The notes under the pieces are model-generated. The model saw only the letters and a program-made list of their open reading frames with translations, ran no database searches and had not been told where the DNA came from. A program made the position numbers and the translations under genes. A DNA stretch of 64,000 nt from Stegostoma tigrinum (Eukaryota), in NCBI RefSeq assembly GCF_030684315.1, contig NC_081399.1, positions 6,248,113 to 6,312,112 on the forward strand, written 5' to 3'. Below, piece after piece: positions 1,567-40,949 of the stretch (position 1 is the stretch's first letter; every line of letters starts with the position of its first letter).

Positions 1567-1605
1567 GGTTTTTGTAGCTGCAAAGACAATAACTTCAACA
1601 ATGTG
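1567..1605 (-). other. RSS-23 of V1
   Basis: CACATTG, 23-nt spacer, ACAAAAACC on the minus strand. Confidence 0.9.
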
Positions 1606-2424
1606 TATTACCGCATGCGCAGAAATAGACAGCCGTGTGAGATGGAGAGGTATCTTTCAGTTCTAAAGTAAACGTCGTTTCACTGGGTCTTTTAGCCTGA
1701 TAAGATTCGGATGTATAACTTGTAATTAAACCTTCACCAGCAGAGTAGAATAAAGCTTCTATTGCCCTGCTGGGTTGCTGTCTGTGCCAGTACCTATCTC
1801 TGTAAACTGTATTCTTCAGAATGCGTCTAAGTGTATTTGAGTCCTCTCTCTTAATCGAAACACTAGAAGGAGACTGCTCCACGTAGAAGGACAGATTTCC
1901 TGTCGAATATAAAATGAAAAAAGTCACATTTTTGACATTAATTAATCAGGACAAAGGGTGCATTTTACTAGAACATTTCCAGTCATGTAAAACCTGTTAC
2001 AATAAACAATGAAAGCACGTTAAAGCAACTTGGGTTCTTTATAAGTTAACCGCCTGGTTACTGTTAAATTTCATCCCAACTGTTTGTAGTAAAGCAAGAT
2101 CGAATAGCAGCAATGTTTACTGGCTACTACACCTGTTCATTTTTTTAAAAAAACATCGCTCCAGATTAAAATTACGGAGCCAGACCTGATTTTCTACGAA
2201 GAGGACTTTGCAATCTTTGATTAGCATTATTATGTGTTCACTATGAATTCCAGTTCCAGTAACTGAAGTGAGATACGAGCCTATGACTTTCTAACCCAGA
2301 CGGGCAACTGCTATAGAGTGAACTATAACTCTTTTGACAATACATTATTCCAATCACGGGGTTACTTTGGCTAACCTAGGAACAGCGCAAACAAACAGAT
2401 GAGTCAATAGACTTCATGCGACAT
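1606..2424 (-). pseudogene. TCR beta-like V pseudogene V1 (leader 2376-2424, V exon 1606-1899)
   Basis: The V exon is open (VEQSPSSVSI...YWHRQQP...AVYFCACG), but the first conserved Cys is Arg and leader codon 7 is TGA. Confidence 0.85.
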
Positions 2425-4628
2425 GATCCTGTCATTTAACACTGGCTCCCTCTGTGAATGGATTATGGTCCAATGGCACCTGTGAAGGCAGTTTCTCTGC
2501 TCCATCTGATTAAATACACCACCTCCGGTTGCTATCTCATTCCCAACACCATTTGTTCTGAAACTTAAGCTCCACCTCACTCTGTTTCTTACTAATCTCT
2601 TTGGATTGATAGGGCAGTATTAATAGCTGGGCTCAAATTTCGAGAGGGATTCTTTAGCCTGGATAAACAAAGACGAATTATTAAGTTGGGTTGTCACTAA
2701 CAACATTCCAGACGTTGAAATAATGGAAGGTGAGTTGTTTGAAATGTTAACTGGATGAGAGAAGAGGATTTATACACTGAGATGCTTAGATCTGAAATGC
2801 ACTTTCTGAAAGTATGGTCTAAGAGGAATAAGAGCAAATTTCAAACAGATTTTGATAAATACATGAAAAGAGAAATGGCAAAAATGGGGTAGAGCACACA
2901 TGGGGAGAAAAGGATTGAATAATGTGACCTACTAAACCAGAGATTTATGGGAGAAACACTACTTCACAAGAGAGTGGTTACCACTTCTTTAATTCTTTCT
3001 TCAAATGTGGATGGCCTTGCAGATCTAACATTTATTTCGCATCCTGAAATGCCATTGTTTTCACTAAGTTGTGGGATGAGGGCATCGCCAGTTACACAGG
3101 ACTTATTGTCCATCTCTGATTGCCCAGCGTGCAGTTCAGGGGCAACTATATGGCTGTGAGTTTGGAGTCACATGGAGGCCAGACCAGGTAAGGACATTTG
3201 TGGGTCAGTGGGATTTTGCAAAAATTCTCAGTTGCTTAATGGTCATCAATAGACTGCTAATTCCACATTCCTTGGTATTGAATTCAAACTCCAACATTGC
3301 TCATGGCAGGATTGAACCCTTGTGACCAGGATATTCTGGGGAAAATCCAGCAATAATACCACCAGACCATCGCCTGCCTTTGTCCACGAGAAGGTCGTGG
3401 TGAGCCGTCTTCTTGAACTTTCATGATCTATTCTATCACTATTTTGTGGCTGTGATGGTTTGCTGGGTCGTTTTTGGAGGCCATTTGGGAGTCAGCATCA
3501 CTGTTATGGGTATGGAATTCACTTCAGACCTAGTCAGGAAAGTAGACCTCATTCTTCATCAGTGAAACAGAATCGTTAATAAGAAACTTCATCACGCATT
3601 CATGATCACAATGACTTGAACAAGCTGTGATTTTTTAAATGTCCAATTAGTTACCTGAAACAGATTTCAATGATACATTTTAAAAGACACTGTATACTGA
3701 CATGAGGAAGATAATATTGAGAGGACGTGTTTACCCTGTACGAGGAACTGTGTTGATCTCATCTAAGGAGCTGACATTGATAGGAACACCCTTATGAACC
3801 TGTTCTGTAATCGTGGTGGTTTTATGAAATATATAACATTATTGAGCCAAGGTTTTCTGTTGTTCCACGGCTTATTACACCAATACGTGACTGTGTGTTT
3901 CTTCAAATTACTTCACCGGGTGTGGACTAAGGAAACGATGCACTGTCAGAGAAAGAACAAAGAGGGAGCGCTATGGTGCTGTCTGACAGGTGATGTAGAA
4001 AGGAGTCTTCTCTCGAATAAATTATTCCATAGCTTGAGAGTTATGCCTGCACTTTTGCTTAAAGGTAAGATTGGACTCTACTGAGACGCATCCACGAATG
4101 CCACTGAATGGTTTACATGCTTAATTTAGTGGAAAATAAATGGTGAACAGCATTGCTGTGAGCGTAGATGTACGTATAGTCCATATCAAGGAATGACAGA
4201 TGAAGTTAGTTGTGAGTCTGCCAGTCAAAGATACTGAGCTGAACTTCAGTTTTTGGAAATATGATGTTAAATTCTGGAGAATGTCTTGTGAGTTTTGTGA
4301 GCAAGAGAATTCCAAACATTATAAAGATCGGCTTCACTTCATTAAACCCAGCATTGCCGTATAGATATTCGCAAATGAATACAGTTGGCTTTTTTTATGG
4401 ATTTTCAGATTCGTTCTCGAGCTATCACTCTCTGCTGACAAGAATGGGGATACGATAGTGAGGTTACTGACTAAATCTGATGGTGAAGTCATCTGTTTTG
4501 TCATAGAAAATGTGCCCTGACATCAATCATCTTTCCCCATCTGTTCCCCATTGGAAATGAGTCATGTGTCCATGGAATGGAATGCAAGTTTTTATTTGTA
4601 AGCGGGAAGACACTATCTCAAAACTATG

Positions 4629-5623
4629 CACTACTATGCGCACTGAAATAGACGGCCACTACTGATGGAGAGGCGCCTCTCAGTTGCAAAGTAACATGTT
4701 TGGCTGAGATAACAAGGTGTAGAGCTGGATGAACACAGCAAGCCAAGCAGCATCAGAGGAGCAGGAAAGTTGACGTTTTGGGTCTGGACCCTTCTTCAAA
4801 ATGTTTGGCTGGGTCTTTTTGTCCGATAAGTCTCGGATGTTTAATTTATAACCATTCCTGTTGCAGCACAGTCAAATAAAGTTTCTATTGCCCGGTCTGG
4901 TTGTAGTCAGTACCAGTACATTTGGGGATAGCTTGTATCCTTCAGCGTGCATCTTAATGTCTCCCAGTTTCCTTCTTGTTTTGACACGATGGAAAGAGAC
5001 TGCTACACATAGGAGCCTAGAATTCCTGTCAAATGTAAAGTGGAAACGGCTCAAATTTCTGACAACAATTTATCAGTACAAGGGTAATATTTGAACGAAG
5101 GGTTTGCATTAACACAGACCTTGACACAATCCAGAACCATATTTCAAAACACTTAAAGAAATGAAAGAATCTTACCTAAATTCCTCGTCACAGATCAAGG
5201 TGTGTGTCATTCATTTTGAGCAAAACTAGATCTAATAACAATGTGGTAATGGCCAGTACGTAAGATGCTGTCAAACAGTTGCCTCAGTTTAATATTATGG
5301 AGCAGGACCTGCCATTCTTTGAAGAGGACACTGTGATCATTGTCTCCAACAGATGAGGACAGTTCAGTTCATATTATGTATTCGCTGTGAACCTTTTAAA
5401 AGTGTAGAAGCTTCTCAGGAATGACAGATGGAACAGCAGGCTTGATTTCCAGGTGCAGTATCTGAAGTGACAGTTGGGCCTTTGACTTTCTAAACCAAAT
5501 GGTCGAATACTACCAAATGAACTTCAGCTCATTTGACAATACATTGTTCCATTCACAGTATGACTTTAACTAACTTGGGGACAGTAGAAACATCCAGATG
5601 AGCTAATAGACTTCATGCGGCAT
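4629..5623 (-). pseudogene. TCR V pseudogene V2 (leader 5575-5623, V exon 4629-5025)
   Basis: Leader codon 7 is TAG, YFC is changed to YFS, the RSS is degenerate (CATAGTT), and the exon is interrupted by a Penelope-derived insert. Confidence 0.85.
4707..4800 (-). mobile_element. Penelope-derived short element inside the V2 exon
   Basis: Matches the terminus of the Penelope element at 25391; 11-bp TSD atgtttggctg at 4696-4706 and 4801-4811. Confidence 0.85.
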
Positions 5624-6479
5624 GATCCTGTTATTTAATATTTGTTCCATCTGTGAATGGATTCCGGTCCAATGGCACACTTGAAGGCAGCTTCTCTGGT
5701 CCATCTAACTAAATACACCACATCCCGTTGCTATCTCATTGCCCCGGGACCATTTGCTGTGAAACCTAAGCTCCACCTCACTCTATCCCTCAGCGACCCA
5801 TTGGATTGATAGATGACCGGTCAATGTGAAAAATAGCTCAAATTGCGATAGTAATTGTATAGGTTAGACAAGCAAAGACAATTATTTGACTGAGTTGTTA
5901 ATAGCAAGAGTCCAGATATTGAAGATGATGCAAGATGTTAGATTGAACGGTAAATGGGAGATAAAGAGAGCTTTTTATACTTCCAGGTGTACTGAATTGA
6001 AATCCATTGTCTGAGAATATATTCTGAGAAGAATTACTGAAACTTTCAAAGCAGATTTGGACCCCTGTCTGAAATTGGGAAAGGGCACAAATGAGGGACA
6101 AGCACATCACGATGGTGGAGTGGAAAGGGGGACGAAGTATCCAGATTTTAAATATATGGCATCGTTGATAAACTGGAGACTTCAGGGGAACCAATCTTTC
6201 ACAATTGAGTGGTGATGGCTTTTTATGTGCTTTTCTGGGATGTGAGTGTTGCTGGCTGTGCTAAAATTTGTAACCCATTTGTAATATATGATTAAGAATG
6301 ATCAAATAAATTTGATGATCATGGAATATTTTGATGTCACTTTGTTTAGAATCCAGTCATAGTGAGTTTAATATGGTTTGGATTGCGTTGTCTGTGTCAT
6401 AACAATCTATAAACAGGGAGTGCCGAAGGGCAGAGATCTTTCCGCCGTGAAAAGTACAGGAATATATCATGTGAGTAAA

Positions 6480-7192
6480 CAGGGGTCCATTGCTTGGCTG
6501 GTGGCAAGAGGAGCTCTGCCAATGAGATCATTTACGCATGACTGGGATCTCTGCGCTTCTGCACGCTGCCCTCGACGTGGCTGTGGGGGGGACGAGACTG
6601 CCAATCACTTCCTTCTGGAGTGTACCTATGCGCAGGAGGTCTGGAGGAGAATGCGGCGGTTTGTTTCAAGGTTCGTCCCGAGCAGCTCCGTGATACAGGA
6701 CTGCGTGCTCTACGGTCTGTTTCACGGGACGCACACCGAGATCATCATCAACTGCGCCTGGAGGACCATCAATGAGGTGAAAGACGCTCTTGGGTCTGCC
6801 CGTAACTTGCTGGTCTTGCAGCTGAAAGAACTAACCCCGACCGAGTGTTGCAGACTGGCACAATCCAAGGTCCAGGACTACTTGCTGAGGGACGCGCTAA
6901 AGCTTGGGGCAGCCGCCGCCAAGGTGCGGTGGGGAAAGACCACCATATGAGACCCATTGGCCAGAGTGTAACAGGGGCCCTATTCGGTAAGTGGGCCCAG
7001 CTGGCGCCTTCCCCAACCTGTCAGGGGGCCAACGGGGACTGTGCGGAGAGACGACCGCCAGGTATTTTTCTTTTGTTTTGGCTTTATTCTGTTAGTTGGT
7101 GTACTTACCCCTAGGGTAACCAGGAGCAGCTAGCATGACCGGGTAGGTGTGTAAATATGTTTTTTTTTGTATATTCTTCGAATAAAGTGTAA
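6480..7192 (+). mobile_element. 3' end of an L1/Tx1-clade LINE
   Basis: ORF 6378-6950 contains the C-terminal zinc-knuckle CPRRGCGGDETANHFLLEC, followed by a T-rich 3' UTR and AATAAA at 7181. Confidence 0.75.
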
Positions 7193-7194
7193 TG

Positions 7195-7915
7195 TATAAC
7201 AGCCCTTCCTCCAGCAGAGACAAATAAAGCTTTTATTGTCAGTCTGGTTGCTCATTGTACCAGTACATTCGAGGGAACCTCGTAGGCTTCAGCGTGCATC
7301 AAAATGTAGCTGAACCTCCATTGTATCGACATGCTGGAAGAAGACTGCTCCACATAGGAGGCTAGAATTCCTGTCCAATGTAATGCGGAAAAGTTTCAAT
7401 TCTTTTGAAAATCACGCATTAGCATGTTGCATTTAAACAAAGGCTTTGCATTGGCACAGAGCAGCTGACAACCCAGAAATATATTTCAACCCATAAAAAG
7501 AAGCAAGATAATTTTATGTTAACACTCTTGCCAACCCTTTCCAGCAAAGCAACATTCTACAACAGCAATGTGGCAACTTTTCTTTTCAAAGGATTGTCTG
7601 AGGTTGAAATGTTCACGCAGGACCTGCTTAATTCTGAAGAGGGCACTGTTGTTATTGTCTCATGCGGAAGAGGGCATTTCTGCTTAACATGTTGTGTTTG
7701 CTATGAACTTTCTAAAAGTGCAGATCACCCTGAGTAATGATCCGTGAACTGTCTGACTTGATTTCCAGTTCCAGGATCTGGAGTGAGAGTCTTTCCTCTG
7801 ACTTTCTCAAACAGATGAGAGAGTGCCACTGAGTGCAGTACTGCTTATTTGTTGACTTTGCCTGATCTGGGGGCAGAGCAAATATCCAAATGAGAGAACA
7901 GATTTCATGTGGCAT
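7195..7915 (-). pseudogene. Truncated TCR V pseudogene V3 (leader 7867-7915, 5' half of V exon 7195-7370)
   Basis: Leader MPHEICSLIWIFALPP has its splice donor mutated to AT; the 3' half of V and the RSS are lost at the L1/Tx1 junction. Confidence 0.8.
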
Positions 7916-11780: not shown

Positions 11781-13884
11781 AGTTGGTGGTGAGGCACAGT
11801 CTGGAATCTACCTGCTCGAATTTGCTCCTACTTCATGTAAATGATGACTTGTCGGGCCTTTTCAGAGGGCACTTCAGAGTCAGTCTTCTTGCTGTGTGTC
11901 CAATGATAATGTACTGTATATATCAGGTCAGGATTGCAGTTGACCTTACTGAAGTGTGCGATGAACAAGCAACGTGTTTCTGAAGCAGAATGACAGTTTC
12001 ACCATGATGATCACAAGCTTTCAAATGGTATTTTTTAAAATGTAAAATATAAAATACATTACTTTGCATGAATATCACTGATACTGTTAAAAGGACACTA
12101 TACAGTGACATGAGGAAGACAAGATTGGAAAGGTGTGTTGAAACTGTATAAGTAATTGAGCTGATTCCGTTTAACCAGCTAACATTGACAGGAAGAACCT
12201 TATCGTCCTCTTCTGTTCTGTCGGATCCTGTGGTTTGGTGAAACATACAATAGTCTCAGTTCAAAGTCCACTCCTGTTCCATGCAGCGAGGCCTATGCCA
12301 CCAACAGGCAACTAAATGTTTCTCCAAATTAACTCACTGGGCATGGACTAAGAGGACAACACAATGGATGGGAAACAACTCAGATGGAGGGCTGAGCTGC
12401 CTGTCCCAAATGGCTTGGATGTTGTTACTGAGATCAGCACTCTCCCAAGTGAATAATCACAGAGCTTCAGACATGAGCTTGCCCTTTTCTTTCACTGTGC
12501 TACATGTTGAACCACCTTCATGGTTTCCATTGGGTGGCTTACTTGGCCATTTCAGAGTGGACTAAACATGCACAGCATTGTTGTGTTTCTGGTGTCAGTT
12601 ATGGGCAAGGCTGGAGTAAGATGGGGAAGTTAGGGTCTGAACTAGCCAGAGAGAGAGAGATGTTCACCTCAATCTCAGTGCGTATAAGTATGTAGTAAAT
12701 GCCTTAGCATGGTTGCATTGGAATTGAAGGAAGTTATTGTGAGTTTTGTGAGCGAGTGATTTCCCAATATTTTAGCAGACAATTACATTTCATCAAATCT
12801 AGCACTGTTTGCGTGCTATTAATATTTGATTGTGTTATCTGTTTCAGGGACCCATCATATTAGGCATGTTTTATCGGTCTCTCTAGTGGATAGAAGAGAG
12901 TCAGGAAAATATAACGAAGGCTTTTTGAATAAATATAGTTCTTTGCCTGACAGTAAGTGAAGTTACCTGAATCTCAGCGGCATAAATAAGAAGGAAAAGT
13001 GGGCTACCACGGATGTATGGAAGCAAAACTAAAATGGGAATCAGGAGATTTTGGTGAGTATAGGCGTTTGTCGTGAAGGGGGAGGGTGCGTGGCTTCCCG
13101 ATTGTTCTCGCTCTATCTTTTGCAGCGTACTCAAGACCAGTATTTTTTAAAAGTCGAGATGGTCGATTCCAAACAAAATGGAAAGAATCACAACCGCGGA
13201 GGCCGGTGGGGACCCAATGTGTTCAGACGGATCTGCAGGAAAGATGAAATGGCTGGTATCCTGGCTGCAAAATAAGAACTAGTTGGGATCCTGGAGTATT
13301 TCCAGTGTAATACAAGGGACCGTCGCTGGAGATAGGCTTGAGGTGCATTAAATATCGAAATTTTCCTTAGAGGGAACAGAGGGAATTAATTTCGCTGGGA
13401 TAATGGATGGTCATCAGAGATACAGATTTTTACTAACTTGAATAGCGGTTAACTGATGGCAAGGCCCTCGGAGTTTCAGGAGTTTTACAATGAAGAGGGT
13501 AGGAATGGTCCATGTGAACAACAATTTGCAATGCACTTCAAAGCTGGACTGTCTGAGAGAAAGATTTGTAAGCAGTTTTAATAATGACATTATAGATTTG
13601 ATTGAATAAATCTGTGAGGGGAACATTTCGCCAGTTCGTGGCTCGACAACAAAGGGGAAATAGTGATCGTAGAAAGACGCCTCATAAAGCACAGGTAGTG
13701 AAACGATGGCCTGATTTCCTTCTTTTGTCCTGACCATTCTCCGACATTTCACCTGGTCGCAGAAAATGTGGCCTGAGCATCAATGAGCCCCTGGCCCCAC
13801 CTGCTGGTGGTGAATGAGTCCCGAATGTCTCTGGAGTCGGATGCAGGTTTTTGGCGCTGAAAACACACTTTCTCAAACGCTGCG

Positions 13885-14778
13885 CGCTACCGAACGCACG
13901 GAAATAGACGGCCGTATGAGAAGGAGAGGCGACACTGAGTTCCAAAGTGAGCAGCGTTTGGCTGGGTCTTTTAGCCTGGTAAATGTCGGATGCATAACTT
14001 GTAACAACGCCTGCTCCAACAGGAAACAATAAAACGTCTATTGGTCGGTCTGGTTGCTGTCTATTCCAGTACATGTTGGTATAGCCAGTATTCCTTAACG
14101 TACATCTGTGTGCGCCAACCTCCTGCTGCAATCAACACTGTGGAAGGCAACTGTTCACGTCAGAGGCAAGAATTCCTGTCGAGGTTAGAGTAGAATAGAT
14201 TCAAATTTCTAACAGTAATTCATGAGGACAATGCTTGCGTTTAAACAGAGGAATTCCAGTGATACGAAACGTCTCACAATAATATAACTTGTTAAAGCAG
14301 GTTAGAAACTTTTTTTGTGTTTTTTATAACTTAAATGTCGAGCTACTGTTAAAATTCATTTCTTCACCAAATCAAGATCCAATAACAGCAAGGTTTAATG
14401 GTTTTTACACACGTTTTCTTTTTATTTTAAGGCGGTGTTCCAAGTTGAAATTTTGGAGTAGGATCTGCTTTTCTCTGAAAAAGATGCCGTTATCGTTGTT
14501 TTGAACCGAAGAGCTCAGTTCTGTTTAACATTCTGTGTTCACTATGAATCTTGTAGAAGTGCTTAGCTCTCTCAGCAATGGTACGTGAATTGTCATCCGT
14601 GATTTCCATTTCCTACTGATCCGGAGTGAGAGTCGGGCTATAACTTTCTAACCCGAATAGAGAGCCCTACCACATGAACAACAGTGCATTGGAAATTGTA
14701 TTCTTCAATTCAGTGTGACTTTGACTAACCTGGATAGAATACAAACATCCAGATGAGGAAATAAACTTCACAGAGCAT
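13885..14778 (-). pseudogene. TCR V pseudogene V4 (leader 14730-14778, V exon 13885-14175)
   Basis: Leader MLCEVYFLIWMFVFYP is intact; the V exon has an early frameshift, YFC changed to YFR, and heptamer CGCAGCG (13878-13884) with nonamer at 13846-13854. Confidence 0.85.
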
Positions 14779-18780: not shown

Positions 18781-18819
18781 GGTTTTCGTAACTGCAAAAA
18801 CACGGCGTCAAACGCTGTG
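18781..18819 (-). other. RSS-23 of V5
   Basis: CACAGCG, 23-nt spacer, ACGAAAACC. Confidence 0.85.
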
Positions 18820-19682
18820 CGTTGCTGCAGGCACAGAAATAGACTGCCGTTTGAGATGTGGAGGCGCCTGTCAGTTCCAAATTAAATTGTGTTTCACTGA
18901 GTCGTTTGGCCTGATAAGACTCGGATGTGTAATTTGTAACAGCTCCTTTTGCAGCAGAGTAGAATAAAGCTTCTATTTGTTGCTCTGGTCGCTGTCTGTA
19001 CCAGTACATAAAGCTGCAAGCTGTGGTATTCAGCGTGCACTTGAATATGTCGGACTCCCCCGGGAAATTGACATGATGGAAGGAGACTGCTCTACTCTGG
19101 AGGCCAGAATACCTGTCGAATGTAAAACAAAACTATTTCAATTTTTTCACAATATTTCTTCTGGACAACAGTTGCACTTAAATACAGAACTTCCAGTGAT
19201 ATAAAATCAATCACTGTGAAAGAACATTTTAAAGCATGCTGTAAGCATTTTGTCTTTTGTTTACTTCATAGCCAGGTTGCTGTTAAAATTCGTCTGAACC
19301 ATTTTGCGTGAAGGAAATTTCAACAACAGCAGTGTTTGTTAGCCAGTGCATATGTTCGCCTTAAAACGTTGCTCCAGTTGAAATTTGCTTTTCTTTGCAG
19401 AGGACTTGGTGACCTTTGACTCTAACTGAAGAGTACAGTTCTGTTAAAGATCATGTGTTCACTATGAACATTCTAAAAGTGCAGAGCTCTCTCAGTCAAG
19501 TCAACCTTCATTTCTAGCTCCATGATCTTGAGTGAGAATCAAGCCTGTTATATTCTACCCCTCATGGGCAAGCGGCACCGAGCGGACAGCTTATTTGACA
19601 ATGCATTGTTCTCTTCACTGTTCGACTTTGACTAACCTGAGTGCAGCACAAGCATCCAGGTGAGAGAGTAGACTTCATACAT
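18820..19682 (-). pseudogene. Near-intact TCR V segment V5 (leader 19637-19682, V exon 18820-19112) with a single -1 frameshift
   Basis: Leader MYEVYSLTWMLVLHS, GT/AG sites intact, both Cys and WYRQ present; one base is missing from the C-run at 19057-19061. Confidence 0.8.
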
Positions 19683-23084: not shown

Positions 23085-23123
23085 GGTTTTTGTAGCTGCA
23101 AACACACGTTCTCTGGCACTGTG
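23085..23123 (-). other. Consensus RSS-23 of V6
   Basis: CACAGTG-CCAGAGAACGTGTGTTTGCAGCT (23 nt)-ACAAAAACC. Confidence 0.97.
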
Positions 23124-24003
23124 CGCTACTACACGCACAGAAATAGACACCGGTGTGGGAAACAGCGGCGCCTCTCAGTTCCAAACTAAACAGCTTCTCG
23201 CTGGACCTTTTGGCCTGAAAGGACTCGGATGTGTAATTCGTAAATGAGCCTTCACCAGCGGAGAAGAATAAAGCTTCCATTCCCCGGCCTGCTCGCTGTC
23301 TACACCAGTACATATTGCCAAAGCTAGTATCCTTCAGCGTGCACGTGAATGTAGCCGAATCTCTTTCTGCAATCGACACGATGGAAGGAGATTGCTCCAC
23401 ACAGGAGGCCAGAATTTCTGTTGAATGGAAAATATTCAAATTTATGGCAACAATTCAGTAGGACAAGGTCTGCATTGAAACTGTTAGCTTGCACTCATTT
23501 AGAAAGTACCGCCATCGAAAGCCGTATTTAACAGAGCTGCAATAATATTTACTTAATTAGCTCGTAACTGTTAAAATCCGTCCCCTCCGTTTTGAACAAA
23601 GCGTGATCCAAAAACAGAAATGTGGTAAAGGCCAGTACATACGCCCCTTGCAAAGAGTTGTTTCATGTTGAATTGTTGAAGTTGGATTTGCTTTTCTCTG
23701 AATGAGCCATTGCAACCATTGTCACTTTCTGAAGAGGACAGTTCTATTTATCGTTTTATGCTCATTGTGAACCTTGCAAAATTGCTGAGCATCTTCAGCA
23801 ATGATGCGTGGAATGTTAACCTTAATTTCTACCTCCAGGATCAGGAGTGAGAGTCGGGTCTATGACGTTCTCATCCAGATGGGAGAACGTGACTGAGTGA
23901 ACTATAAGTCATTTGGCAATGCACTGTTCCATTCACGCTGTGCCTTTGACTAACCTGAGGACATAGAAAATATCCAGATGAGAAAGTAGACTTCAGGCAG
24001 CAT
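23124..24003 (-). CDS. TRBV: Intact T-cell receptor beta-like variable gene segment V6 (leader exon 23955-24003, V exon 23124-23417)
   Basis: Spliced product MLPEVYFLIWIFSMSS-E-ILASCVEQSPSIVSIAERDSATFTCTLKDTSFGNMYWCRQRAGRGMEALFFSAGEGSFTNYTSESFQAKRSSEKLFSLELRGAAVSHTGVYFCACSS; phase-1 GT-AG intron; V-set Cys/Trp/Cys; perfect RSS. The beta-chain call rests on my recollection of TRBV30 sequence. Confidence 0.85.
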
Positions 24004-26929: not shown

Positions 26930-27156
26930 AATTACTGCGTGAACCTGGTTCTTCCTCGCTAGTTGTTGAAGGAATCTGAAACTCAGCAGCGTAATTAAGA
27001 AGGGGATTCTGTGTATTTTTTACAGAGGTATTGGAGCAGAGTGGAAGCAGTGAGAATGTGGTAACTAAAGATGATTGATTATGAGTGGGAGAGAGGCGCT
27101 GTTTTCTTGATGATGATGCTACGTCAGTTGCACCATCTAGGATTATATAGCCGTGT

Positions 27157-29505
27157 AAGAACATAAAACGTCGAACATAGAACAGTACAGTACAGTACAG
27201 GCCCTTCGGCCCACGATGTTCTGCCGAACTTTTACCCTAAACCTAAGGTCTATCTAACCTCCACCCCTACCTTATATTGCCATCCATATGCCTATCCAAT
27301 AGCCACTTAAATGCCCCTAATGAGGCCGACTCCACTACCGTCTCCTGTAATGCATTTCACGCCTCTCTGAGTAAAGACCTTACCTCGACGTCTCCCCTAT
27401 AATTGTCTCTACTCAATTTAAAACTGTGCCCCCTCGTAATAACTACCTCCACCCTCGAAAAATGTCTCTGGCTGTCCACTCTATCTATACATCTGATTAT
27501 TTAGTACTCCTCTATCAAGTCACCTCTCATCCTTCGTCTTTCTAAAGAGTAAAGCCCTAGCTCTCTCAACCTTTCTGCGTAAGACCTTCCCTCCATACCA
27601 GGCAACATCCTGGTAAATTTCCTCTGCACCTTTTCCAATTCTTCCACATCTTTCCTGCAATGAGGCGACCAGAACTAGAAACAATACTCCAGATGTGGCC
27701 GAACCAGGATTTGGTATAGGTGGAGCATAACTTCACGGCTCTTTAACTCAATCCCTCCATTAATGAAAGCTAACACACCATACGCCTTCTTAACAAGTCT
27801 AACTACCTGGGTGGCAGCTCTCAGGGAACTGTGAACATGAACCCCAAGATCCCACTGCTCCTCCACACGGCCAAGAATCTTTCCATTAACCTTGTATTCT
27901 GCTTTCATTTTGTTCTTCCAAAATGAATCACCTCACACTTTTCAGGGTTTAACTCCATCTGCCACTTCTCACCCCAGCTCTGCATCCTATCAATGTCCCT
28001 TTGTAACCGAGAACAGCCCTCTGCACTATCCACCACTCGAGCCACCTTCATATCACCTGCAAACTTGGTAATCCATCCTTCCACTCCTACTTCCAAATCA
28101 TTGACAAAAATCACAAATGGGAAGAGGACTCAGAACAGATTCTTGTGGTACACCACTCGGAACTGAGCGCCATGTTGAATATTTTCTGTCCACTACCACC
28201 CTTTGTCTTCTAAGGGTCAGCCAATTCTGAATACAATCTGCCTCATTTCCCCCTATTCCATGCCTCCTTACTTCCTGCATGAGCCTACTATGGGAAAATT
28301 TATCAAATGCCTCACTTAAATCCACGAATACCATATCCAATGTTCTACCTTCATCCACGTGTTTGGTCACATCTACAAAGAATTCAATAAGTTTCGTGAG
28401 GCATGATCTACCCCTCGCAAATCGATGCTGACTATCCCGAATCAAACTGTGCCTATACAAGTGACCATAAATCCTATCTCTCGGAGCCCTTTCCTATAAT
28501 TTTCCCACTGCTGACACAAGACTAACTGGCCTGTAGTTCTGGGTTTATCCCTATTCTCTTTTTTGAACAAGGGCATGATGTTCACCTCTTTCCAATTTTC
28601 TGGCACTATACCCATGGGCAATGAGGACGAAAAGATCATCGCAAAAGCCCCTGAAATCTCTTCCCTCAATTTCCACAGAATCCTTGGATAAATCCCATCA
28701 GGCCCAGAGGACTTATCTGTCTTCAACTTCCTCAAAATTCCGAGTGCATCTTCCTTACTAACATCCACCTTCCCTAGCCTACCAGCCTGTTTCACAATGT
28801 CATCCCCCACAGCTAGGTTCCTCCCAGTTGTGAATACCGAAGAAAAGTATTCATTAAGGACCTCTCCTATTTCTTTAGTCTCCGTGCACAAATTCCCTTT
28901 ACAATCCTTGATGGGCCCTACCCTTTCTCTGGTCATCCTCTTCTTCCTCACATACGCATAAAAAGTCTTGGAGTTTTCCTTAATCCTATCTGCCAGGGTT
29001 TTCTCATGACCCATTACAGCTCTGCTAAGCCCTTTGTTCAGCTCCTTCCTAGCTAACTTGTAACCATCTAGAGCGTTTTCTGATCCTTGTTTCCTTAACC
29101 TTATATAAGCATACTTCTTCCTCTTAACCAGTCGTTCGACCTCTCTTGAGAACCAAGGCTCCATCACTCAACCACATCTTCCCTGCCTGCTAGGGACAAA
29201 CATTTTGAGCATGCACAGTATGCATTCCTTAAACAATCTCCACATTTCTATAGTGCTCTTCCCTGACCGCATCTGTTACCATTTTGTGTTACCCAGTTCT
29301 TTCCAACAGAATTATAATTACTCTTCCCCCAATTATAAACCTTACCCTGCTGTATGTACTTATCCTTTTCCATGAATATTGTAAAAGCACCAGAGGTATG
29401 ACTGCTACCACCAAAATGCTCTCCTACCAACAGGTCTAACACTTGATCTGGTTCATTGCCAAGCACCAATTCGAAAGTGGCCTTTCCTCGTGTTGGTCTA
29501 TCTAC
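27157..29505 (-). mobile_element. CR1 LINE, 5'-truncated and frameshifted
   Basis: ORF fragments 29248-29469, 28442-29167, 28098-28460, 27905-28114 and 27675-27908 carry CR1 RT motifs (KSSGPDGIYPRIL, SCLTKLIEFF, LVRPHLEYC). Confidence 0.92.
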
Positions 29506-29770
29506 ATGTAAGACGGAATGGCAACTCTCAGTTCAAAACTAAGCAGCAATTCATTGTGTCTTTTGGCCTGATAACACTTGGATATGTACTTTAGAACTGC
29601 TCCTGATACACCAGAGTGGAATAAAGCTTATATTGCCCCGTCTGGTTGCTGTCTGTGTCAGTACATGGAGCTGCAATCTGTATTATTCAGCGTGCATCTG
29701 AGTGTAGCCGAATATCTTCCTGCATTCGACATGATAGAAGGAGACCTCGCCAGGTAGGAGGCCAGAATTC
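29506..29770 (-). pseudogene. TCR V fragment V7
   Basis: RCTLNNTDCSSMY*HRQQP; the 3' end and RSS are missing at the CR1 junction, and no leader is found upstream. Confidence 0.8.
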
Positions 29771-30290: not shown

Positions 30291-32532
30291 CTTTCGAACC
30301 AAATTTGGATCAATGTACGAAAGGGGGCAGAGCAGGTGGGGAAAGTAGAATAAATGCCATTAAAAGACTATTAGCTGATAAATCCAAACGATTGGTAAAC
30401 CCAAGATTTCAGGGAGAGGCAAAAAAGATGGAATTCAGAAGACAATGGGACTACTTGTTTAATTTCATCCTGGATGTGGACGTACTATTTATCCTCACCT
30501 TTGTTGTCCATCCGGAATTGTCCTTATGAAGATGTTGATGAGACACTTCTTGAATTATTGTGCTTTATTCCGTCACTGCTTTGTACAAATGGCTTGCTGA
30601 GCCATTTAAGAGGAAATTCAGAGCCAACCAATTTCTGTGGGTCTGCAGTTACATGTACTCCAGACCAGATCAACATGGCACATTCTGTCCCCGAAGGACA
30701 TCAAAGAACAAGATGCGTGTTTGTAATTCGTAATGACAGTTTTGTGACCACGATGGCTAAATCAAGTTTGGAAGTTTTTTTTAATGTTATATTGACATAT
30801 ATGTCAATTGCACTTTTAAAAATGCGTTACATACTGACATGAAGAAGATATGACTGGGAGGGTCTATCGACAGGATGAAACGGATTATGCTGATCCCATC
30901 TAAACAGTTGACATTGAAAACAAAACAGCCTCATGGCTCTGTTCTGTTCTGTAGGATTTTGTGGTTTAGTGAAATATGCAACAGTCTTGGGTGAAAATTG
31001 CTCCCCAGTTCCATGCAGCGAGGCCCTATTCCAACCAAGTGTGACTGTATGTTTCTTCGAGGTTATTCACTGGGCATGGACAGAGAGAATGATGCACTGC
31101 CAGAGAAGCCAAGACAAAGAAGCGCTGCTTTGCTGTTTGGCAGGTGATGTTGAAAGCAATATTCTCTCAAACAGCGATTACATAGCTTGAGGTTTGCACC
31201 TGAAAGTTTGCTTATTTGTGGAATTGGACTGCGATGAGGCAAATTCATGAAGGTTACTGCGGGGGTTACTAACCCATTTCAATGATGAATCCTTCTGAAT
31301 AGCATTATAGAGTTTCTGAGCCTATATATGGACCAGATCGTGAAATGTAGGGCGGAATTAGCTGTGAACCTGCCAAAGATGTCATCTGAACTTCAGTGTG
31401 CGATGGATTACTAAATCCAGGATCGTGGAGTCCATTTGAATAGAAAGAAATTCTGGTGAATTTCGTCAGCTAGTGACTTCCAAGCACTTCCACGGTCAGT
31501 CTCTTTTCCTTCAACACTTCTTTACTTGCAGGAAATTCTCACATGAATCTATTTTGCTGTTTGTGGGATCTTTCTGACTTGGGCTGAAATGGTCAATCAC
31601 TGTGCTGGAAAGATTGAGAATAGGACAGTGAAGTTACAGACAAAATCTCATTCGTTAGCTGCCAGTAACTGAAGTTATCTGCAGGCCATTACAGTAAATA
31701 GGAAGTGAAGCTGCACCGGAACAAAAGCATTGGAGCAGAGTGAAATCCTCGGAAATTCGTTGAGTAAAGGAGTTCCGTGTGAAGGAAGGGCAGGGAGCCA
31801 CTGTTTACTTGCTGTTGTTGTGCCATTTTTTGTAGCATCCAGAAAATTTCTGCGGAAGAGGTTCAATAGTCTGGCATGAGTTGTTGGGGTGGTGGGGTGG
31901 AGGGCGCAAAGATGAATGATGCGCAGAATCGGAAGGATTTGCAGATGTTCACTGCAATTCGGGGGCCTTCAGGAGAGATAAACTTGAGTGCTCAGAGTAT
32001 TGAAAGTTACCTTTTTTGATAAAAGGGAATCTGCTTTCAGTGGGATTAGGCATCACCATCAGAAACAGGAAATTCCACTATTGGAAAAATGATCACCCTG
32101 CTGGGGGTCAGGTGGGTGTTTGGGGTTTGGGGGAGTTCCAGTGAGTGGAGGTTGGCTATGTTCCCAGTGACGAAGAATTTAAGATGATTTTGAATGCGAT
32201 ACTGCTTGACAGAATGTTCTGGAGATGGGTTTATTAATCATGTTAGAATGGGATTAAGTAAATAAGTCAACGGTAACAATTCAGCAGTTTATTAGAGAAG
32301 CGCAAGGTGAGATTGTAATCGACAGGAGCGTTATCTCAAAGCCATGAGAGGGATAAACTTGACTGAATTCCAGACTATATCCTCTTAATTACCTTATTCA
32401 TAATCTGGTCACGGAAAATGTACCCTAAACATTAATCGTGTGTCCCCACCTACTGATGGAACATGAGTCCTTAATGCCCCGGAGTTGGATGTGGGTTTTG
32501 GTTAATGCAAAGACGCTTTCTCAACCGCTGTT

Positions 32533-33367
32533 CACTGTTGCACGCACAAAAAATAGACACCAGTGTGAGACGGTGAGGCAGTTCTCACTTCCAAAATGAA
32601 CAGAGTATCAGTGGTTCTTGCGGCCTGATAAGATTCAAATGTGTAATTTGTAACAACCCCTGCTGCAACTGAAAAGGGTAAAGCTTCTACTGCCTGGCCT
32701 GTTTGCTGTCTGAACCAGTACATTCGGAGATAGACAGTATCTCTCAGCGTGAACTTGAGTGTCGCTGAGCGTCCTCCTGAAATCGACACGATGGAAGGAG
32801 ACTGCTGCACGTCGGGAACCAGAATTCCTGTCGAATCTGAAGTGGAATAGAATCAGATTTATAGCAATCATTCATAAGGACATTCATTGAAGCAATGATA
32901 TATTTGATATAAAACCTGTCACGATAAACAAACGTTTTAAATCGGGTGCAAATACTTCTTTTCACTTAATTGTCAGTTCTCTGTTAAAAGTCATCACTAT
33001 CACTTCAAGCAAAGCGCTGTTCGAGAATTCTAATGTTTATTGGTCAGCAGATATGTTATTTTCGAAAGGTACTTCCACATTGAAATTTTGAAGCTGGGCT
33101 TGTTTTTCTCTGAAGAGGAAAATGTAGTCATTGTCTCCAACTGTTTAGCATTGTGTGCACCATTTAAAATTGCAGACCATCCTCGGTAATGATGTATGGA
33201 GGGTCAGCCTTGACTTCCAACTTCAGGATCAAGATTCAGAGTCAGGCCTTAGACCAGATGGGAGAACGCTATCGAGTGAACAATGCATTGTTCCATTCAC
33301 GGTGTGTCTTTCTCTTACCTGGGTTCAGTGCCAATATGCAGATGAGATGAGAGAGTTCATTCAGCAT
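32533..33367 (-). pseudogene. TCR V pseudogene V8 (leader 33319-33367, V exon 32533-32827)
   Basis: First Cys changed to Phe, +1 frameshift in the A-run before the second Cys, heptamer AACAGCG. Confidence 0.85.
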
Positions 33368-35106: not shown

Positions 35107-35111
<5 letters not shown>

Positions 35112-36214
35112 ATCTCTTTCTAGATATTAATCAATTAATGACGTGTTGCAAGTTCTGTGGAAGAACGCCAGTCTGCAGCAAATACGTGAGAGTCCAGAGA
35201 TCTAGTGCAGTTTCATAAACGAGTGACTTCAGAATTCATGGAAGAGACACGTATTTCCGTTTGCTTCTGATAAATCCCATCGTCAAAGAATTTCATGAAA
35301 GAGTGGCATGTACTGTTGAAATGGGTGTCCAGTTGGCAACTTATGATTCTTTTATATGCAGTTTTCATTTATCTCTTAATTATGTCCGTCTTTCGGTGTG
35401 GCAGTGGTGTTTTATATTGAAAAAGATTGGGCTTAGACAGCCTTGTTTTTATTTTCTATGTTCTACTAAGGGTACATTGCTAATAATGATTTGCTCTTTA
35501 CAATTTAAGTCATAGACTTTATATCCAACATAAAGCCTAGATACAAGCAATTAAACAGTTTTGAGAGTTGAAATTCTGAATATTTTAAATTCTCTGTGTT
35601 GCAAATTCAGTTAAAACGAGACTGGAATGGTTTAACTTGTTCTCCCTGTGCCGCAAAATTCGATAATGCAGAAATGTTTAAGGAGATACAGCTTTGAGAT
35701 GTTGAAATTGCAGAAGTGAAACATTTGAGCGGAATGTCCTGACAGTGCGATGAAGGATGAACATCAGAGACATTGATTTCCACTCAACGGAAAAAGGATC
35801 GGCCTGATTAGGGAGTCCCAGTGAGTGGGAGAGATTAGATGTTCCATTTGAGCAACAATTCATAGTTCCCCTGAAACCAAGGCTGCTTTTAAAAAATCTG
35901 GAATCTGAATTTAAAATGACTTTTACAAAAAAAATGCTTCTGTAAACATATGAAAGGAAAAGTTTCCCGAGTTTATGGGCCAAGAAGTGGCGGAGATTGT
36001 GATTTACAGAAGAGCTCTCTCAAAGCGCTGACAATGGAAAGATGACCTGAGTTCTATTTGCTCTCTGCCCCATTCTCCGATTCTTCATCTTTTCGTGGAA
36101 AATTTGTTCCAAACATCTATAGTCTGACACCTCCTGCTGTTAGGAATTAAGCCCTGGGGTTGGATGCGTATTTTTTTTTCTCTGTAGCTTGCAAAGAATT
36201 TCTCAAACCTTGTT

Positions 36215-37040
36215 CACTACTGCTTACACAGAAATAGACTGCAGTGTGAGTAACTGCATTTTTAAAATAGACAGTGTTTGGTGAAGTCTTATGCTCAGAA
36301 AAGACTCGAATGTGTAATATCCAACAGGTCCTACTCCAACAGAGCAGAACAAAGCCTCTGTTGCCAGGTCTGTTTGTTGTAAGCACCAGTTTCTTTGGAG
36401 ATAGCCAGGATCCTTCAGCGTGCATCTAAGTGTAACCGGAATCTCCTCTTGACGTACTCATCACAATCGCTATGATGGAAGGAGACTGCTCCTCTGTTCA
36501 GGCCAGAATTCCTGCAGAATCTGAAATGGAATAGATTCAAATTTATGACCATAATTGATTTGTACAAGGGTTGCATTGAAACAGAGGGATTGCGCTGATA
36601 TCAAAGATACCTAAAAATCATTTTCCAAGAGCATTACAGGCAATGAAGTAAGCTATACTTAAATGTTTCAGAGAGATAACGGGAACTGCAGATGCTGGAG
36701 AATCCGAGATAACAAAGTATGGAGCTGGATGAACACAGCAGGCCAAGCAGCATCTTAGGAGCACAAAAGCTGACCTTTCGGGCTTAGGCTCCACACTTTG
36801 TTAGCTCAAATGTTTGGGCACTGTTAGAAGTGTTGTACCCATTCTGAGCAAAGCTAGATTCTCAGAAATGATCCTTGAAATGTTAACCTTGAATTCCAGT
36901 TTCTGGATCAGGAGTAAGAATCGGATCAATGTCTCACTAAGCAGCTGATTGGACAATGCATTGTTCCATTCCTGGTACTCCCTTAACTAACGTGGGTCCA
37001 GTGCAAACATCCAGATGTGATAATTAACTTCACGTAGCAT
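36215..37040 (-). pseudogene. TCR V pseudogene V9 (leader 36992-37040, V exon 36215-36511)
   Basis: Indels in the V exon, HTAVYFCVSSS end retained, RSS destroyed; Penelope-derived insert in the intron (about 36669-36807, TSD aaatgttt). Confidence 0.8.
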
Positions 37041-37429: not shown

Positions 37430-38352
37430 CGGCAACTTCCTACCGTGGTGTGGGACAATGCCACACTTCCCACGAGCCCCACCAACCAGGGCACTTTTCC
37501 CTGCAACTGCAGGAAGTGCTAAACCTCCCCTGACATTCCCCCCTCACCCCCATCCCAGGCTCCAAGAAGACCTCCCACATCAAACAGATGCTCACCTGCA
37601 CATCTGCTAATGTGGTATACTGCATTCTCTGTTCCTGTTGTGGTCTCCTCTTCATCCGGAAAACCAAATGGAGACTTGGGACCGTTTTGTGGAACACCTA
37701 CTCTCAGTTCACAACAAACTACTGCACCTCCCAGTCGCAAACCATTTTAACTCCCCCTCCCATTCCTCAGACAACATGTCCATCCTGGGCCTCCTGCAGT
37801 GCCACAACGATGCCACCCGAAGGTTGCAGTAACAGCAACTCATATTCCGCTTGGGAACCCTGCAGCCCAATGGTATCAATGTGGACTTCACCAGCTTCAA
37901 AATCTCCCCTCCCCCAACCGCATCCCAAAACCAGCCCAACTTGCCCCGCCTCCCTAACCTGTCCTTCCTCCCACCTATCCACTCCGTCCACCTCAAGTCC
38001 CAATCCCATCTCTTACTCACCAGCTTCATGCCACCCCCTTGACCTGTCGGTCCTCCCTAGACTGACCTATCCCCACCCTAACTCCCCACCTATACTCACC
38101 TTAACTGGCTCCATCTCCACCACCTTGACCTATCTGTCTCCTCTCCACCTGTCTTCCCCTTTACCCATCTTCTGCCCGCCTCTCCCTCTCTCCCAACTTA
38201 TTTCAGAATCCCTTTCCCCTCCTCCATTTCTGAGGAAGTGTCTAGATCCAAAACATTAACTTTCCACCTCCTCCGATGCTGCTTGGCCTGCTGTGTTCAT
38301 CCAGCTTCACACCGTGTTATCCCAGTTTCTCCAGCATCGGTAATTCCCACTA
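37430..38352 (+). mobile_element. Degenerate Penelope-like element 3' part
   Basis: VVYCILCSCCGLLFI (decayed GIY-YIG), LGTLQPNGINVDF and a terminal repeat homologous to 25391-26929. Confidence 0.88.
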
Positions 38353-38354
38353 CC

Positions 38355-38530
38355 CCTTCATGCGTCATGATCCTGTATCTGTCACTGGCTCTATCTATGA
38401 ACAGCGTGCAATCCAATGACACTGGTGGAGGCAGTTTCTCTGCTGCACATGATTTAAAACATCATATCTGCTTGCTATCTCATTCCCCAGACACCATTTG
38501 CTGTCAAAATTTAACTCCACCTTACTTTAT
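38355..38530 (-). pseudogene. Orphan V promoter plus first leader codons (V exon deleted)
   Basis: ggatcATGACGCATGAA and the conserved promoter block directly abut the Penelope end. Confidence 0.7.
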
Positions 38531-39035: not shown

Positions 39036-39923
39036 ATGTTAGAAACGCCTTGAGAAAACATTACTGAGCCACTTCTTTGATCATTTCGGATAAAGGTGAA
39101 TGGTGAGCATCTTTGCTGTGTAAGTGGAATCACACATAGGCTAAATCATGAAATGAAGAGCAAAATTAGCTGTGAACTCGCCAGAGAGAGGCAGAGACTG
39201 GGAGTTTGTGGACGTTAAATTGGTAAATTAAGGGATGATCAGTGTTGACCAATCCATCGCAGAGAATGCTGAACAATAAATGGAAAACAGTGAGTGAGCT
39301 AGTTCTTACTGGGCTTTTTGGGCACGAGGTAGTTCTTTTTTAGTTTGGGAAGATGCTAAACTGCAAAGTTCTTGTTCGGTTTTGCTCACTCCAGATGATC
39401 AAATGTTATTGACAAATTTAATGTTCTGAGAAACAACCCAGCCTGTGGTAAATATGTGAAATTCTACAGTTCCAGGATTATTTGCATTGACCAGTCATTC
39501 GGAATCGAAGAAAAATATAAACTTCCACATGCCTATAATACAACACAAGCCAAAGAACTTTACTACAGTTTGGTATTCTTCGTTGAAATTGCAATTGAAC
39601 TGATAATTTACAGTTGTTTGATGTTCCTTGTTAATTTATCCATGAATTGTGGCTGTCTGTCTGTTGGTGTGTGAGTGGTGTTTTATAATTAAGACGATTG
39701 AGCTTAGATCATTAAAATTAATTAGACTGTCTTGTTCATCTGCATTCCAGTGCGGTGGCATTCTTAACAAGAAATTGTTAATATTTGTCTAAGTTATAAA
39801 CTGTGTATCTAAAGTCAGATTAAAGTCTGGTCATGAACAAGTGAACAACTTTAAGGATCAGTGAATGTTTTAATTTCACTGTGTTGCAAATCTAGTGATA
39901 AGCTGATATGGTTTAACTTTCTA

Positions 39924-40123
39924 AATAAAAACAAAAACCAAAAGAACTGTGAACGCCCTAAATCAGGAACAAAAACAACACTGAAAGGGCTGGAAAAGCT
40001 CAGCAGGCCTGGCAGCGTCAATTCCGAGGAAGGGTCAGCAGACCGGAAATGTTAACTTTTTTTTACTTAACAGATGCTGCCAGACCTGCTGAGCTTTTCC
40101 AGTAGTTTTGTTTTTTTTTCCCA
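39924..40123. mobile_element. Palindromic mini-element of a second Penelope-like family
   Basis: Inverted arms ctggaaaagctcagcagg / cctgctgagcttttccag; 14-bp TSD ggtttaactttcta at 39910-39923 and 40124-40137; degenerate hammerhead-like core. Confidence 0.7.
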
Positions 40124-40684
40124 GGTTTAACTTTCTATCAACCTGTTCTAACATTCTGTAATGCAGGAGCGATTAAGGGGAGATCAATTTGCACAGCTCA
40201 AAATACTGAAATGACTCTTTTCGGGAAACAGGGAAGTGTGTTTCCAGTTGGTTAAAGGACGGTCAGCAGAGCTACTGATTTCCACTAAATGTGAATAGGA
40301 TCAGCTTGCGGGAGGAGGCCCTGAAAATGGGGGAGAAGAGATTTTCCATGTGAGGAACAATTAGTTGTTGGATACAAGATTCTAGAAACAGATTTAATAA
40401 TGTCATTAAAAGATATTTGAGTAAATAAGTGAATGGAAATGATTCTGTAGTTTATGGTTCAAGATCAAAGAGAGATTGTGTTTGACAAGAGGCTTTTCAC
40501 AGACCACTGAAAATGAAGGGATGAGCTGAATTCCACGTTCTGTCCTCCATATTCTCTGAATCTTAACTTCGTCACAGAAAATGTGCCCTGAACATCAATC
40601 ATCTGATGGTGGACAATAAGACCTGAATATCCCTGGGGTCAGAGACAGGTCTTTGTAGCTGAAAAACCACTTTCACAAAAGTAG

Positions 40685-40949
40685 AGAGTCGTGTAAGATG
40701 GAGAGGCACCTCTCAGTTACAAGACAAACAGCGTCTAGCTGAGGCTTTTGCGTGACAAGACTTGGTTCTGTAAATGGCAACAAGGCCTTCTCCAGCAGAG
40801 AAGAATAAGGCTTCTATTGACCGCTCTGGATACTGTTTGTACCAGGGCACTCGAGGATAACTAGTGTCCTTCAGCGTGTATCTGAGTGGAGTCTCCACCT
40901 CCAAATGGCACAATGGAAAGAGACTGTTCCACGTAGGAGACCAGAATTT
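40685..40949 (-). pseudogene. TCR V pseudogene V10
   Basis: YTLKDTSYPRVPWYKQYPERSIEALFFSAGEG; first Cys lost, YFC and heptamer deleted, nonamer-like ggtctttgt at 40648-40656 remains, leader absent. Confidence 0.8.

What the first reader, a model, noticed from the sequence alone, without database searches (positions are those of the whole stretch)
1567..40949. Expanded, mostly decayed array of TRBV30-like V genes in a probable shark
Seen: about 11 paralogous units, of which only V6 is intact. Recalled knowledge: the V6 framework (CTLKDTSFGNMYWCRQRAGRGMEALFFSAGEG...FQAKRSSEKLFSL...YFCACS) aligns closely with mammalian TRBV30 (CTVEGTSNPNLYWYRQAAGRGLQLLFYSVGIG...LSASRPQDRQFIL...YLCAWS), which in mammals is a single inverted V lying 3' of TRBC. 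Inference: this ancient V lineage expanded locally and is now decaying. No D, J, C, trypsinogen or EPHB6 neighbour is in the window, so the array could be the distal edge of TRB, an inverted 3' cluster, or an orphon.
Basis: partly seen in the sequence, partly recalled or inferred. Interest (0 to 1): 0.7.

Follow-up and report, generated by a model that had tools for sequence, protein, structure and literature searches.

The report
Second shark T-cell beta locus edge

Summary
The array is real: 10 V exons plus one leader-only remnant on the minus strand; only V6 is intact. It is neither an orphon nor an inverted 3' cluster. Four more family members, six other V genes or fragments, one D, at least five J and a C-beta lie left of the window on the same strand. 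The family is the nurse shark TCR betaV1-V3 group (83% identity to cDNA ADW95896). In trees it joins alligator, turtle and newt V genes ending CACS (99/98), not the TRBV30-type genes ending CAWS; a sister relation to those is favoured but unresolved. TRBV30-type V genes do exist in this genome, on contig C51, where 7 of 9 lie inverted behind two further C-beta genes. The scan had already noted that C51 locus, and its layout matches the published bamboo shark map. What may be new: one shark genome holds two separate TRB loci with different V families. Expression of V6 was not testable.

The parts
1567..2424 (-). Unit 1: V pseudogene. Leader (ATG 2424) has a stop at codon 7; V exon 1606-1899 is open but the first canonical Cys is Arg; 23-RSS 1567-1605 near canonical
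4590..5623 (-). Unit 2: V pseudogene. Leader stop, 3 stops in the V exon (4629-5025), 103-nt repeat insertion, second Cys lost, heptamer damaged
7100..7915 (-). Unit 3: truncated V pseudogene. Leader donor lost, frameshifts and stop, 3' end and RSS gone
13846..14778 (-). Unit 4: V pseudogene. 1-nt and 2-nt deletions, second Cys is Arg, heptamer starts CGC; leader open
18781..19682 (-). Unit 5: V pseudogene with a single 1-nt deletion in the V exon (18820-19112); leader and 23-RSS otherwise usable
   Evidence: same letters in contigs of 4 runs
23955..24003 (-). Unit 6 (V6) leader exon, 16 codons plus 1 nt, GT donor
23124..23417 (-). Unit 6 (V6) V exon, open, V-set domain; two private Tyr-to-Cys changes (SCVEQ, WCRQ) and the family's CACS end
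23085..23123 (-). Unit 6 recombination signal, perfect heptamer, 23-nt spacer, perfect nonamer
29483..29770 (-). Unit 7: V pseudogene. Stops, 3' end and RSS lost, no leader found
32494..33367 (-). Unit 8: V pseudogene. First Cys is Phe, 1-nt insertion near the end, heptamer starts AAC; leader open
36176..37040 (-). Unit 9: V pseudogene. Stop, 13-nt insertion, 10-nt deletion, heptamer starts AAC
38356..38446 (-). Leader-only remnant of an eleventh unit (ATG 38368), cut after 4 codons by a repeat
40675..40949 (-). Unit 10: most distal V pseudogene. 5-nt and 1-nt deletions, stops, RSS lost, no leader found

Best explanation
The array is the distal 5' end of a conventional T-cell receptor beta locus whose D, J and C segments lie 77-115 kb to the left on the same strand, and its one intact window member, V6, would likely be used by ordinary deletional V-D-J joining. 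Shown: contig C59 carries, all on the minus strand, 14 V genes of this family (10 in the window), 6 V genes or fragments of other families, one D (C59:6172493-6172505, 12-spacer signal on the V side, 23-spacer on the J side), at least 5 J, a C exon (C59:6154550-6154894) and a TM exon. Inferred: RAG joins D to J, then a V 23-RSS to the D 12-RSS, deleting the DNA between. The family grew by old tandem duplication of a 3-5 kb leader-V unit and has since lost 10 of 14 copies, mostly at the distal end (birth and death). It is the nurse shark betaV1-V3 family, part of a CACS-ending clade shared with alligator, turtles and newt, and is at most a sister of the TRBV30 lineage. This TRB locus is separate from a second, two-cassette TRB locus on C51 that holds the TRBV30-type genes.
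For: Layout and strand. The C exon is 73.9% identical to nurse shark TCR-beta cDNA ADW95896.1; the same cDNA matches family member C59:6245359 at 83.7%, its leader at 94% and a J at 85.7%, so a member of this family is joined to this type of C-beta in a related shark. Nurse shark betaV1, V2 and V3 forward primers (PMC5931798 table) match family members with 2, 0 and 1 mismatches. Tree of 80 V domains: shark family plus tetrapod CACS genes 99/98, starred; no family member falls with TRA/TRD/TRG/Ig rows; repeated at 100/97 with 34 rows. V exon identity among the 14 copies is 54-80%, median 68%, while single copies match nurse and whale shark genes at 83% and 86% of residues, so the duplications predate those species splits (inference). 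Four intact-looking copies have 45 nonsynonymous to 42 synonymous single changes, nine broken ones 165 to 75 (p 0.006; unit 3 left out). Intact copies: 3 of the 4 proximal, 1 of the 10 distal (p 0.04, split chosen after seeing the data).
Against: Use of V6 itself is not shown. Its own ratio (15 to 10) cannot be told from broken copies (p 0.38) or from the other intact ones (p 0.35), and it has two Tyr-to-Cys changes absent from the four paralogues aligned with it, so it may be an open but dead gene. The trees have only 95-96 columns, no mammalian TRBV30 row, and the large tree's bootstrap had not settled. AU tests do not reject the CACS clade lying with bony-vertebrate TRBV30-type genes to the exclusion of shark CAWS genes (p 0.30), nor with mouse V-beta-8/TRBV6-like rows (p 0.30). 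The one rejecting test (p 0.016) was framed after the first tree and also forces the tetrapod CACS genes out. C59 lacks the usual tetrapod TRB neighbours among scored hits.
Confidence: 0.85

Rival explanations
1. The family is the un-inverted shark branch of the TRBV30 lineage: amniote inverted V genes descend from it, as in the model that a 5' family moved behind C.
For: V6 alone ranks two TRBV30-type chains first among single-V TCR hits, 53.4 and 53.0 bits. CACS and CAWS clades are sisters at 98/74 and 83/84. AU p 0.30 for CACS plus bony CAWS genes. PMC11754216 proposes a 5' ancestral family and finds non-inverted axolotl V genes in the inverted clade.
Against: The lead over mouse V-beta-8.2-type chains is 0.3-0.7 bits and vanishes for the family profile and for member C59:6245359. 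Better candidates exist on C51: 86.5 against 50.2 bits (V6) and 73.4 (best family member) for reedfish TRBV30, 85.1 bits for MEL5, and 7 of 9 CAWS-type C51 genes or remnants lie inverted behind a C-beta. The family lacks the CAWS end and the NP-containing CDR1.
Confidence: 0.1
2. The locus reading holds, but V6 too is a dead gene, so the whole window is a graveyard and only the three proximal copies serve.
For: Two private Tyr-to-Cys changes, one next to the conserved Trp; substitution ratio not different from broken copies; flanked by broken copies on both sides.
Against: Open leader, both splice sites, open exon and the only perfect RSS of the family; branch length 0.31-0.33, like intact paralogues.
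Confidence: 0.3
3. The array is an orphon or an inverted cluster 3' of a constant gene.
For: No D, J or C inside the window; flanks hold GPCR, trypsin-like and pyrin-domain frames, not tetrapod TRB neighbours.
Against: D, J and C-beta lie downstream on the same strand with no N gap between; no V or C hit in 200 kb right of the window or in about 180 kb beyond the C exon.
Confidence: 0.02

Closest known systems
Nurse shark TCR betaV1-V3 families (cDNA ADW95896.1; primers in PMC5931798)
   Same: Same V family (62% identity to V6, 83% to member C59:6245359), same leader type, similar J, C exon 74% identical.
   Different: Seen there as cDNA; here the germline array with 10 broken copies. V6 has no close nurse shark match among the proteins retrieved.
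CACS-ending TRBV-like genes of alligator, turtles and newt (KYO37520.1, KYO37522.1, KYO37526.1, CAM5078457.1, KAJ1121889.1)
   Same: One clade at 99/98; shared YVEQ start, EALFYS-like stretch and YxCACS end; 37-48% identity.
   Different: FR3 one residue shorter in tetrapods; their genomic position and expression could not be checked.
TRBV30 lineage (human MEL5 beta chain, PDB 3hg1; reedfish and bichir TRBV30; shark C51 CAWS genes)
   Same: TRB V gene with 23-RSS, similar loop lengths, LFYS/MFYS stretch; possibly the sister clade.
   Different: Not inverted, not 3' of C, ends CACS not CAWS, lacks the NP CDR1, 33-40% identity to reedfish TRBV30 against 41-48% for two C51 genes.
Bamboo shark TRB locus (Giorgetti et al. 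2023, PMC10322711 Supplementary Table 3)
   Same: Its layout (V+, C-J-D minus, three V minus, V+, D-J-C plus, V minus) matches C51 of this genome.
   Different: The table lists one scaffold with two C genes and no single-cassette locus like C59; the match to C51 rests on layout, not on sequence.
Multiple TRB loci of salmonids and squamate TCR-epsilon (PMC10464911, PMC11754216)
   Same: More than one V-D-J-C beta-type locus per haploid genome.
   Different: The three shark C exons are only 39-53% identical, so the split is old; no whole-genome duplication is invoked here.

Membership tests
Rearranging TRBV gene (V6) | V-set domain with both canonical Cys and the conserved Trp | tested here: met
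   Pfam V-set 50.7 bits; alignment
Rearranging TRBV gene (V6) | Leader exon with GT/AG splice sites in phase | tested here: met
Rearranging TRBV gene (V6) | 3' recombination signal with 23-nt spacer | tested here: met
   perfect heptamer and nonamer at 23085-23123
Rearranging TRBV gene (V6) | Linked D (12/23 signals), J segments and C-beta | tested here: met
   C exon 73.9% to nurse shark TCR-beta
Rearranging TRBV gene (V6) | Groups with TRBV, not TRA/TRD/TRG/Ig V | tested here: met
   tree; single-V PDB hits are TCR beta chains
Rearranging TRBV gene (V6) | Found rearranged and transcribed with C-beta in this species | not testable with these tools
   see Tried and rejected; a family member is rearranged in nurse shark
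Nurse shark betaV1-V3 family | Clade membership and high identity to the expressed nurse shark V | tested here: met
   98/85 for the shark clade with ADW95896, not recovered as one clade in the 34-row tree because of the sawfish row; primers match
TRBV30 lineage | Inverted position 3' of TRBC | tested here: not met
   5' of D-J-C, same strand
TRBV30 lineage | CAWS end and NP-containing CDR1 as in reedfish TRBV30 | tested here: not met
   family ends CACS or CARS
TRBV30 lineage | TRBV30 is the best mammalian match | tested here: not met
   tie for V6; absent from best 60 for the family profile and for member C59:6245359; met instead by C51 genes
TRBV30 lineage | Nested in one clade with TRBV30-type genes | tested here: inconclusive
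   separate clade, sister at 98/74; AU p 0.016 and 0.30 for two framings; no mammalian TRBV30 row
Orphon V cluster | No D-J-C in cis | tested here: not met

The most novel reading that the evidence does not exclude
Carpet sharks run two long-separated T-cell receptor beta systems: a single-cassette locus (C59) that alone holds an ancient CACS V family kept in amphibians and reptiles but not found here in mammals, and a two-cassette locus (C51) that alone holds the TRBV30-type genes. The nurse shark cDNA literature and the bamboo shark genomic map each describe only one of the two. If both are expressed in one animal, shark alpha-beta T cells need exclusion between loci and may split into beta isotypes, a parallel to squamate TCR-epsilon, and the CACS/CAWS split predates the shark-bony fish split.
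Probability: 0.45. Interest if true: 0.62.

Novelty: new member of a known kind. Interest (0 to 1): 0.38.

Why it matters
The window itself is an ordinary V-gene graveyard at the far end of a TRB locus, of a family known from nurse shark cDNA. Its value is in context: it ties the expressed nurse shark betaV1-V3 family to a germline locus, suggests an old TRBV lineage shared by sharks, newts, turtles and alligators, and shows one shark genome with three divergent C-beta genes at two places. That bears on how many TRB loci the jawed-vertebrate ancestor had, where the inverted TRBV30 came from, and on shark repertoire studies primed on one C-beta type, which would miss the other locus.

Tried and rejected
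Expression: no RNA holder listed; this says nothing for or against use of V6. Word-index search with V6 alone found nothing; with the family alignment 1 hit of 107 candidates; with reedfish TRBV30 2 of 4 candidates and no mammalian TRBV30, so none could enter the trees. A repeat about 2 kb upstream of each V was first taken for the leader and rejected: wrong splice phase, absent before two intact-looking copies; the true leader came from the nurse shark cDNA. Tetrapod TRB neighbours: no hit on C59 among the 150 listed trypsin matches (150 of 296 candidates scored, 1 match not listed), 14 Eph matches or 5 monooxygenase matches. Pfam scans of flanks covered 149 of 247 unique frames 3' of C, 50 of 431 frames right of the window and 50 of 690 on C51, so neighbours may be missed. 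The C-domain tree (8 rows) did not resolve the three shark C genes. PDB search with the C exon is dominated by multi-domain Ig chains; the one TCR chain among the best 60 of 774 is a beta chain. The published tree in PMC11754216 DataSheet3 was unreadable as text. Two key shark papers (PMC7909615, PMC3222143) are not held. A lone TM-like exon 3' of the C59 C gene had no C1 or J partner. No structure prediction was run: it would not separate TRBV families.
Full report
1. Observation. The window is G000:C59:6248113-6312112. Translated and DNA searches with V6 find ten V exons on the minus strand between 1606 and 40949, each in a 3-5 kb unit whose non-coding parts are also duplicated. The leader exon was found through nurse shark cDNA ADW95896.1 (P0005). 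Eight window units keep a recognisable leader and one further leader stump sits at 38368, giving 11 units. Only V6 has an open leader, splice sites, an open exon with the canonical residues and a perfect 23-RSS. Unit 1 has an open exon but a leader stop and no first Cys; unit 5 has a single 1-nt deletion; the rest have several lesions. Contigs of four runs from one study agree with the assembly over the V5 and V6 exons; they may be the assembly's own source.

2. Where it lies. I fetched 280 kb left and 200 kb right of the window. Leftwards, on the same strand, come four more family members (C59:6245359, 6243696 broken, 6234315, 6231832), six V genes or fragments of other families (6216329 to 6182436), one D with a GGGACAGGG core and 12/23 signals (6172493-6172505), five J motifs with GT donors (6172006 to 6163875), a C exon (6154550-6154894) and a TM exon near 6151151. 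V6's signal is about 99 kb from D. No V was found right of unit 10 or beyond the C exon. The C exon is 73.9% identical to the nurse shark TCR-beta constant domain. The array is therefore the distal end of a conventional V-D-J-C beta locus; orphon and inverted cluster are refuted.

3. Which family. A profile search of 1.84 billion representatives (1314 hits at E 0.001, best 150 seen) returned as best single domains whale shark, nurse shark, catshark and sawfish proteins (170-108 bits), then alligator, turtle and newt genes (92-74 bits), then CAWS-ending genes of bamboo shark, reedfish and sturgeon (71-65 bits). Nurse shark betaV1-V3 primers printed in PMC5931798 match family members with 0-2 mismatches, so this is a known expressed family. 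In an 80-row tree (96 columns; rows chosen by me from 477 retrieved domains and the fetched loci) the shark family and the tetrapod CACS genes form a starred clade (99/98); the CAWS genes form another (99/76); the two are sisters at 98/74. A 34-row tree gave 100/97, 80/82 and 83/84. Holding the shark family with bony-vertebrate CAWS genes alone is rejected (p 0.016), but holding the whole CACS clade with them, or with mouse V-beta-8/TRBV6-like rows, is not (p 0.30 each). Deep order is unresolved, and no mammalian TRBV30 row was available.

4. The TRBV30 claim. Human TRBV30 could be tested only through PDB scores; the MEL5 beta chain is TRBV30 according to a figure legend of PMC5887915. V6 gives MEL5 53.0 bits and a mouse V-beta-8.2-type chain 52.7 (the label V-beta-8.2 for the top mouse chains is partly recalled, one listed chain carries it). 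The family profile and member C59:6245359 leave MEL5 out of their best 60. A genome search with reedfish TRBV30 led to contig C51. There lie two more complete cassettes in opposite directions, each with D, J, C and TM (C exons at C51:671900 minus and 767277 plus). Of nine CAWS-type V genes or remnants there, seven are inverted behind a C and two broken ones lie 5' of the plus cassette. A profile of six of them scores MEL5 at 85.1 bits, with no other TRBV family among the single-V hits shown. These, not the window's genes, are the shark's TRBV30 counterparts. The scan had already reported C51, and its layout matches the bamboo shark TRB table of PMC10322711.

5. How it most likely works. Shown: the parts and their order. 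From established V(D)J rules: D-to-J then V-to-DJ joining by RAG under the 12/23 rule, by deletion because all parts share a strand. Inferred: tandem duplication of a leader-V unit long ago (exon identities 54-80%, lower than orthologue identities across species), followed by loss. Intact-looking copies show fewer amino-acid-changing substitutions than broken ones (p 0.006) and sit mostly near D. V6 is formally functional, but its own counts are uninformative and it carries two private cysteines, so I give about 30% to its being dead.

6. Two loci. A genome search with the C59 C exon finds three beta-type C exons: itself and the two on C51 at 42-43% identity; the next hits are 35% or less (150 of 162 candidates scored). 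Pairwise the three are 39-53% identical. Hits to V6 at 45% identity or more occur only on C59 and CAWS genes were seen only on C51. The C59 locus is over 6 Mb from the nearer contig end, so the two loci are at least that far apart; whether they are on different chromosomes is not shown. The nurse shark cDNA uses the C59 type (74% against 44-45%), while the bamboo shark table, with most segments marked transcribed, fits C51. A complement C1s-like exon lies beside C51; that C1S lies near TRB in birds is recalled, not tested.

7. Literature seen. Passages only: PMC12227049, PMC10464911, PMC5931798, PMC5887915, PMC12529555. PMC11754216: passages, Table2 and part 1 of 2 of DataSheet3. PMC10322711: passages, a search over 11 of 19 supplements, legends, and part 1 of 5 of the TRB table. 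Eight searches showed no paper that describes two separate shark TRB loci or this germline array, but I saw listings only for most hits, and the two most relevant shark papers were not held. From memory, early horned shark work (Rast and Litman 1994; Hawke et al. 1996) reported several TCR-beta constant regions; unverified, it would lower the novelty.

8. Verdict. Real feature, ordinary mechanism, known V family; the TRBV30 label belongs to another locus. New member of a known kind, interest 0.38; the two-locus reading would deserve about 0.62.

Noticed in passing
G000:C51:585900-819251 (L045-L068): Two-cassette TRB locus with CAWS-ending, TRBV30-type V genes inverted 3' of both C genes; already noted by the scan and matching the bamboo shark map.
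   Followed up: yes
L012:1231-1341 (C59:6129343-6129453, plus strand): An exon with AG and GT borders encoding a TCR-like transmembrane segment with a central Lys, facing the C59 C-beta tail to tail, 22 kb away; single copy; no C1 exon or J found upstream. Possibly the remnant of a lost opposite cassette.
   Followed up: partly
window 23124-23417 and family: The family has a third Cys two residues after the second canonical Cys, kept in the rearranged nurse shark cDNA; several members (C59:6234315, units 5 and 7, turtle genes) also have a Cys in CDR1, and V6 has two others. A CDR1-CDR3 disulfide is possible but untested.
   Followed up: no
window 61275-62207 (+): Open single-exon rhodopsin-family GPCR frame of 310 aa (Pfam 7tm_1), the nearest non-repeat gene-like frame 5' of the V array.
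   Followed up: partly
L030:5056-6018, L038:9296-9763, L028:1823-3454: Right flank holds a trypsin-like (Trypsin_2) frame, a pyrin-domain frame and a 544-aa frame with no Pfam match.
   Followed up: no
L050:894-1172 and L050:2850-3032 (C51:630894, 632850): Two unusual V genes with a short, Cys-pair-containing CDR2 region, inverted behind the C51 minus cassette; already noted by the scan.
   Followed up: no
G000:C58:7220021-7224328 and 8328770: Trypsin exons and a divergent Eph ligand-binding exon lie about 1.1 Mb apart on C58, not on either TRB contig; the tetrapod TRB neighbourhood seems split here.
   Followed up: no
window 25742-27019, 37534-38259, 6372-6950, 27387-29167: Retroelement fragments (GIY-YIG-bearing and LINE-like) are inserted between V units; one short repeat interrupts unit 2 and another cuts the leader at 38368.
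   Followed up: partly
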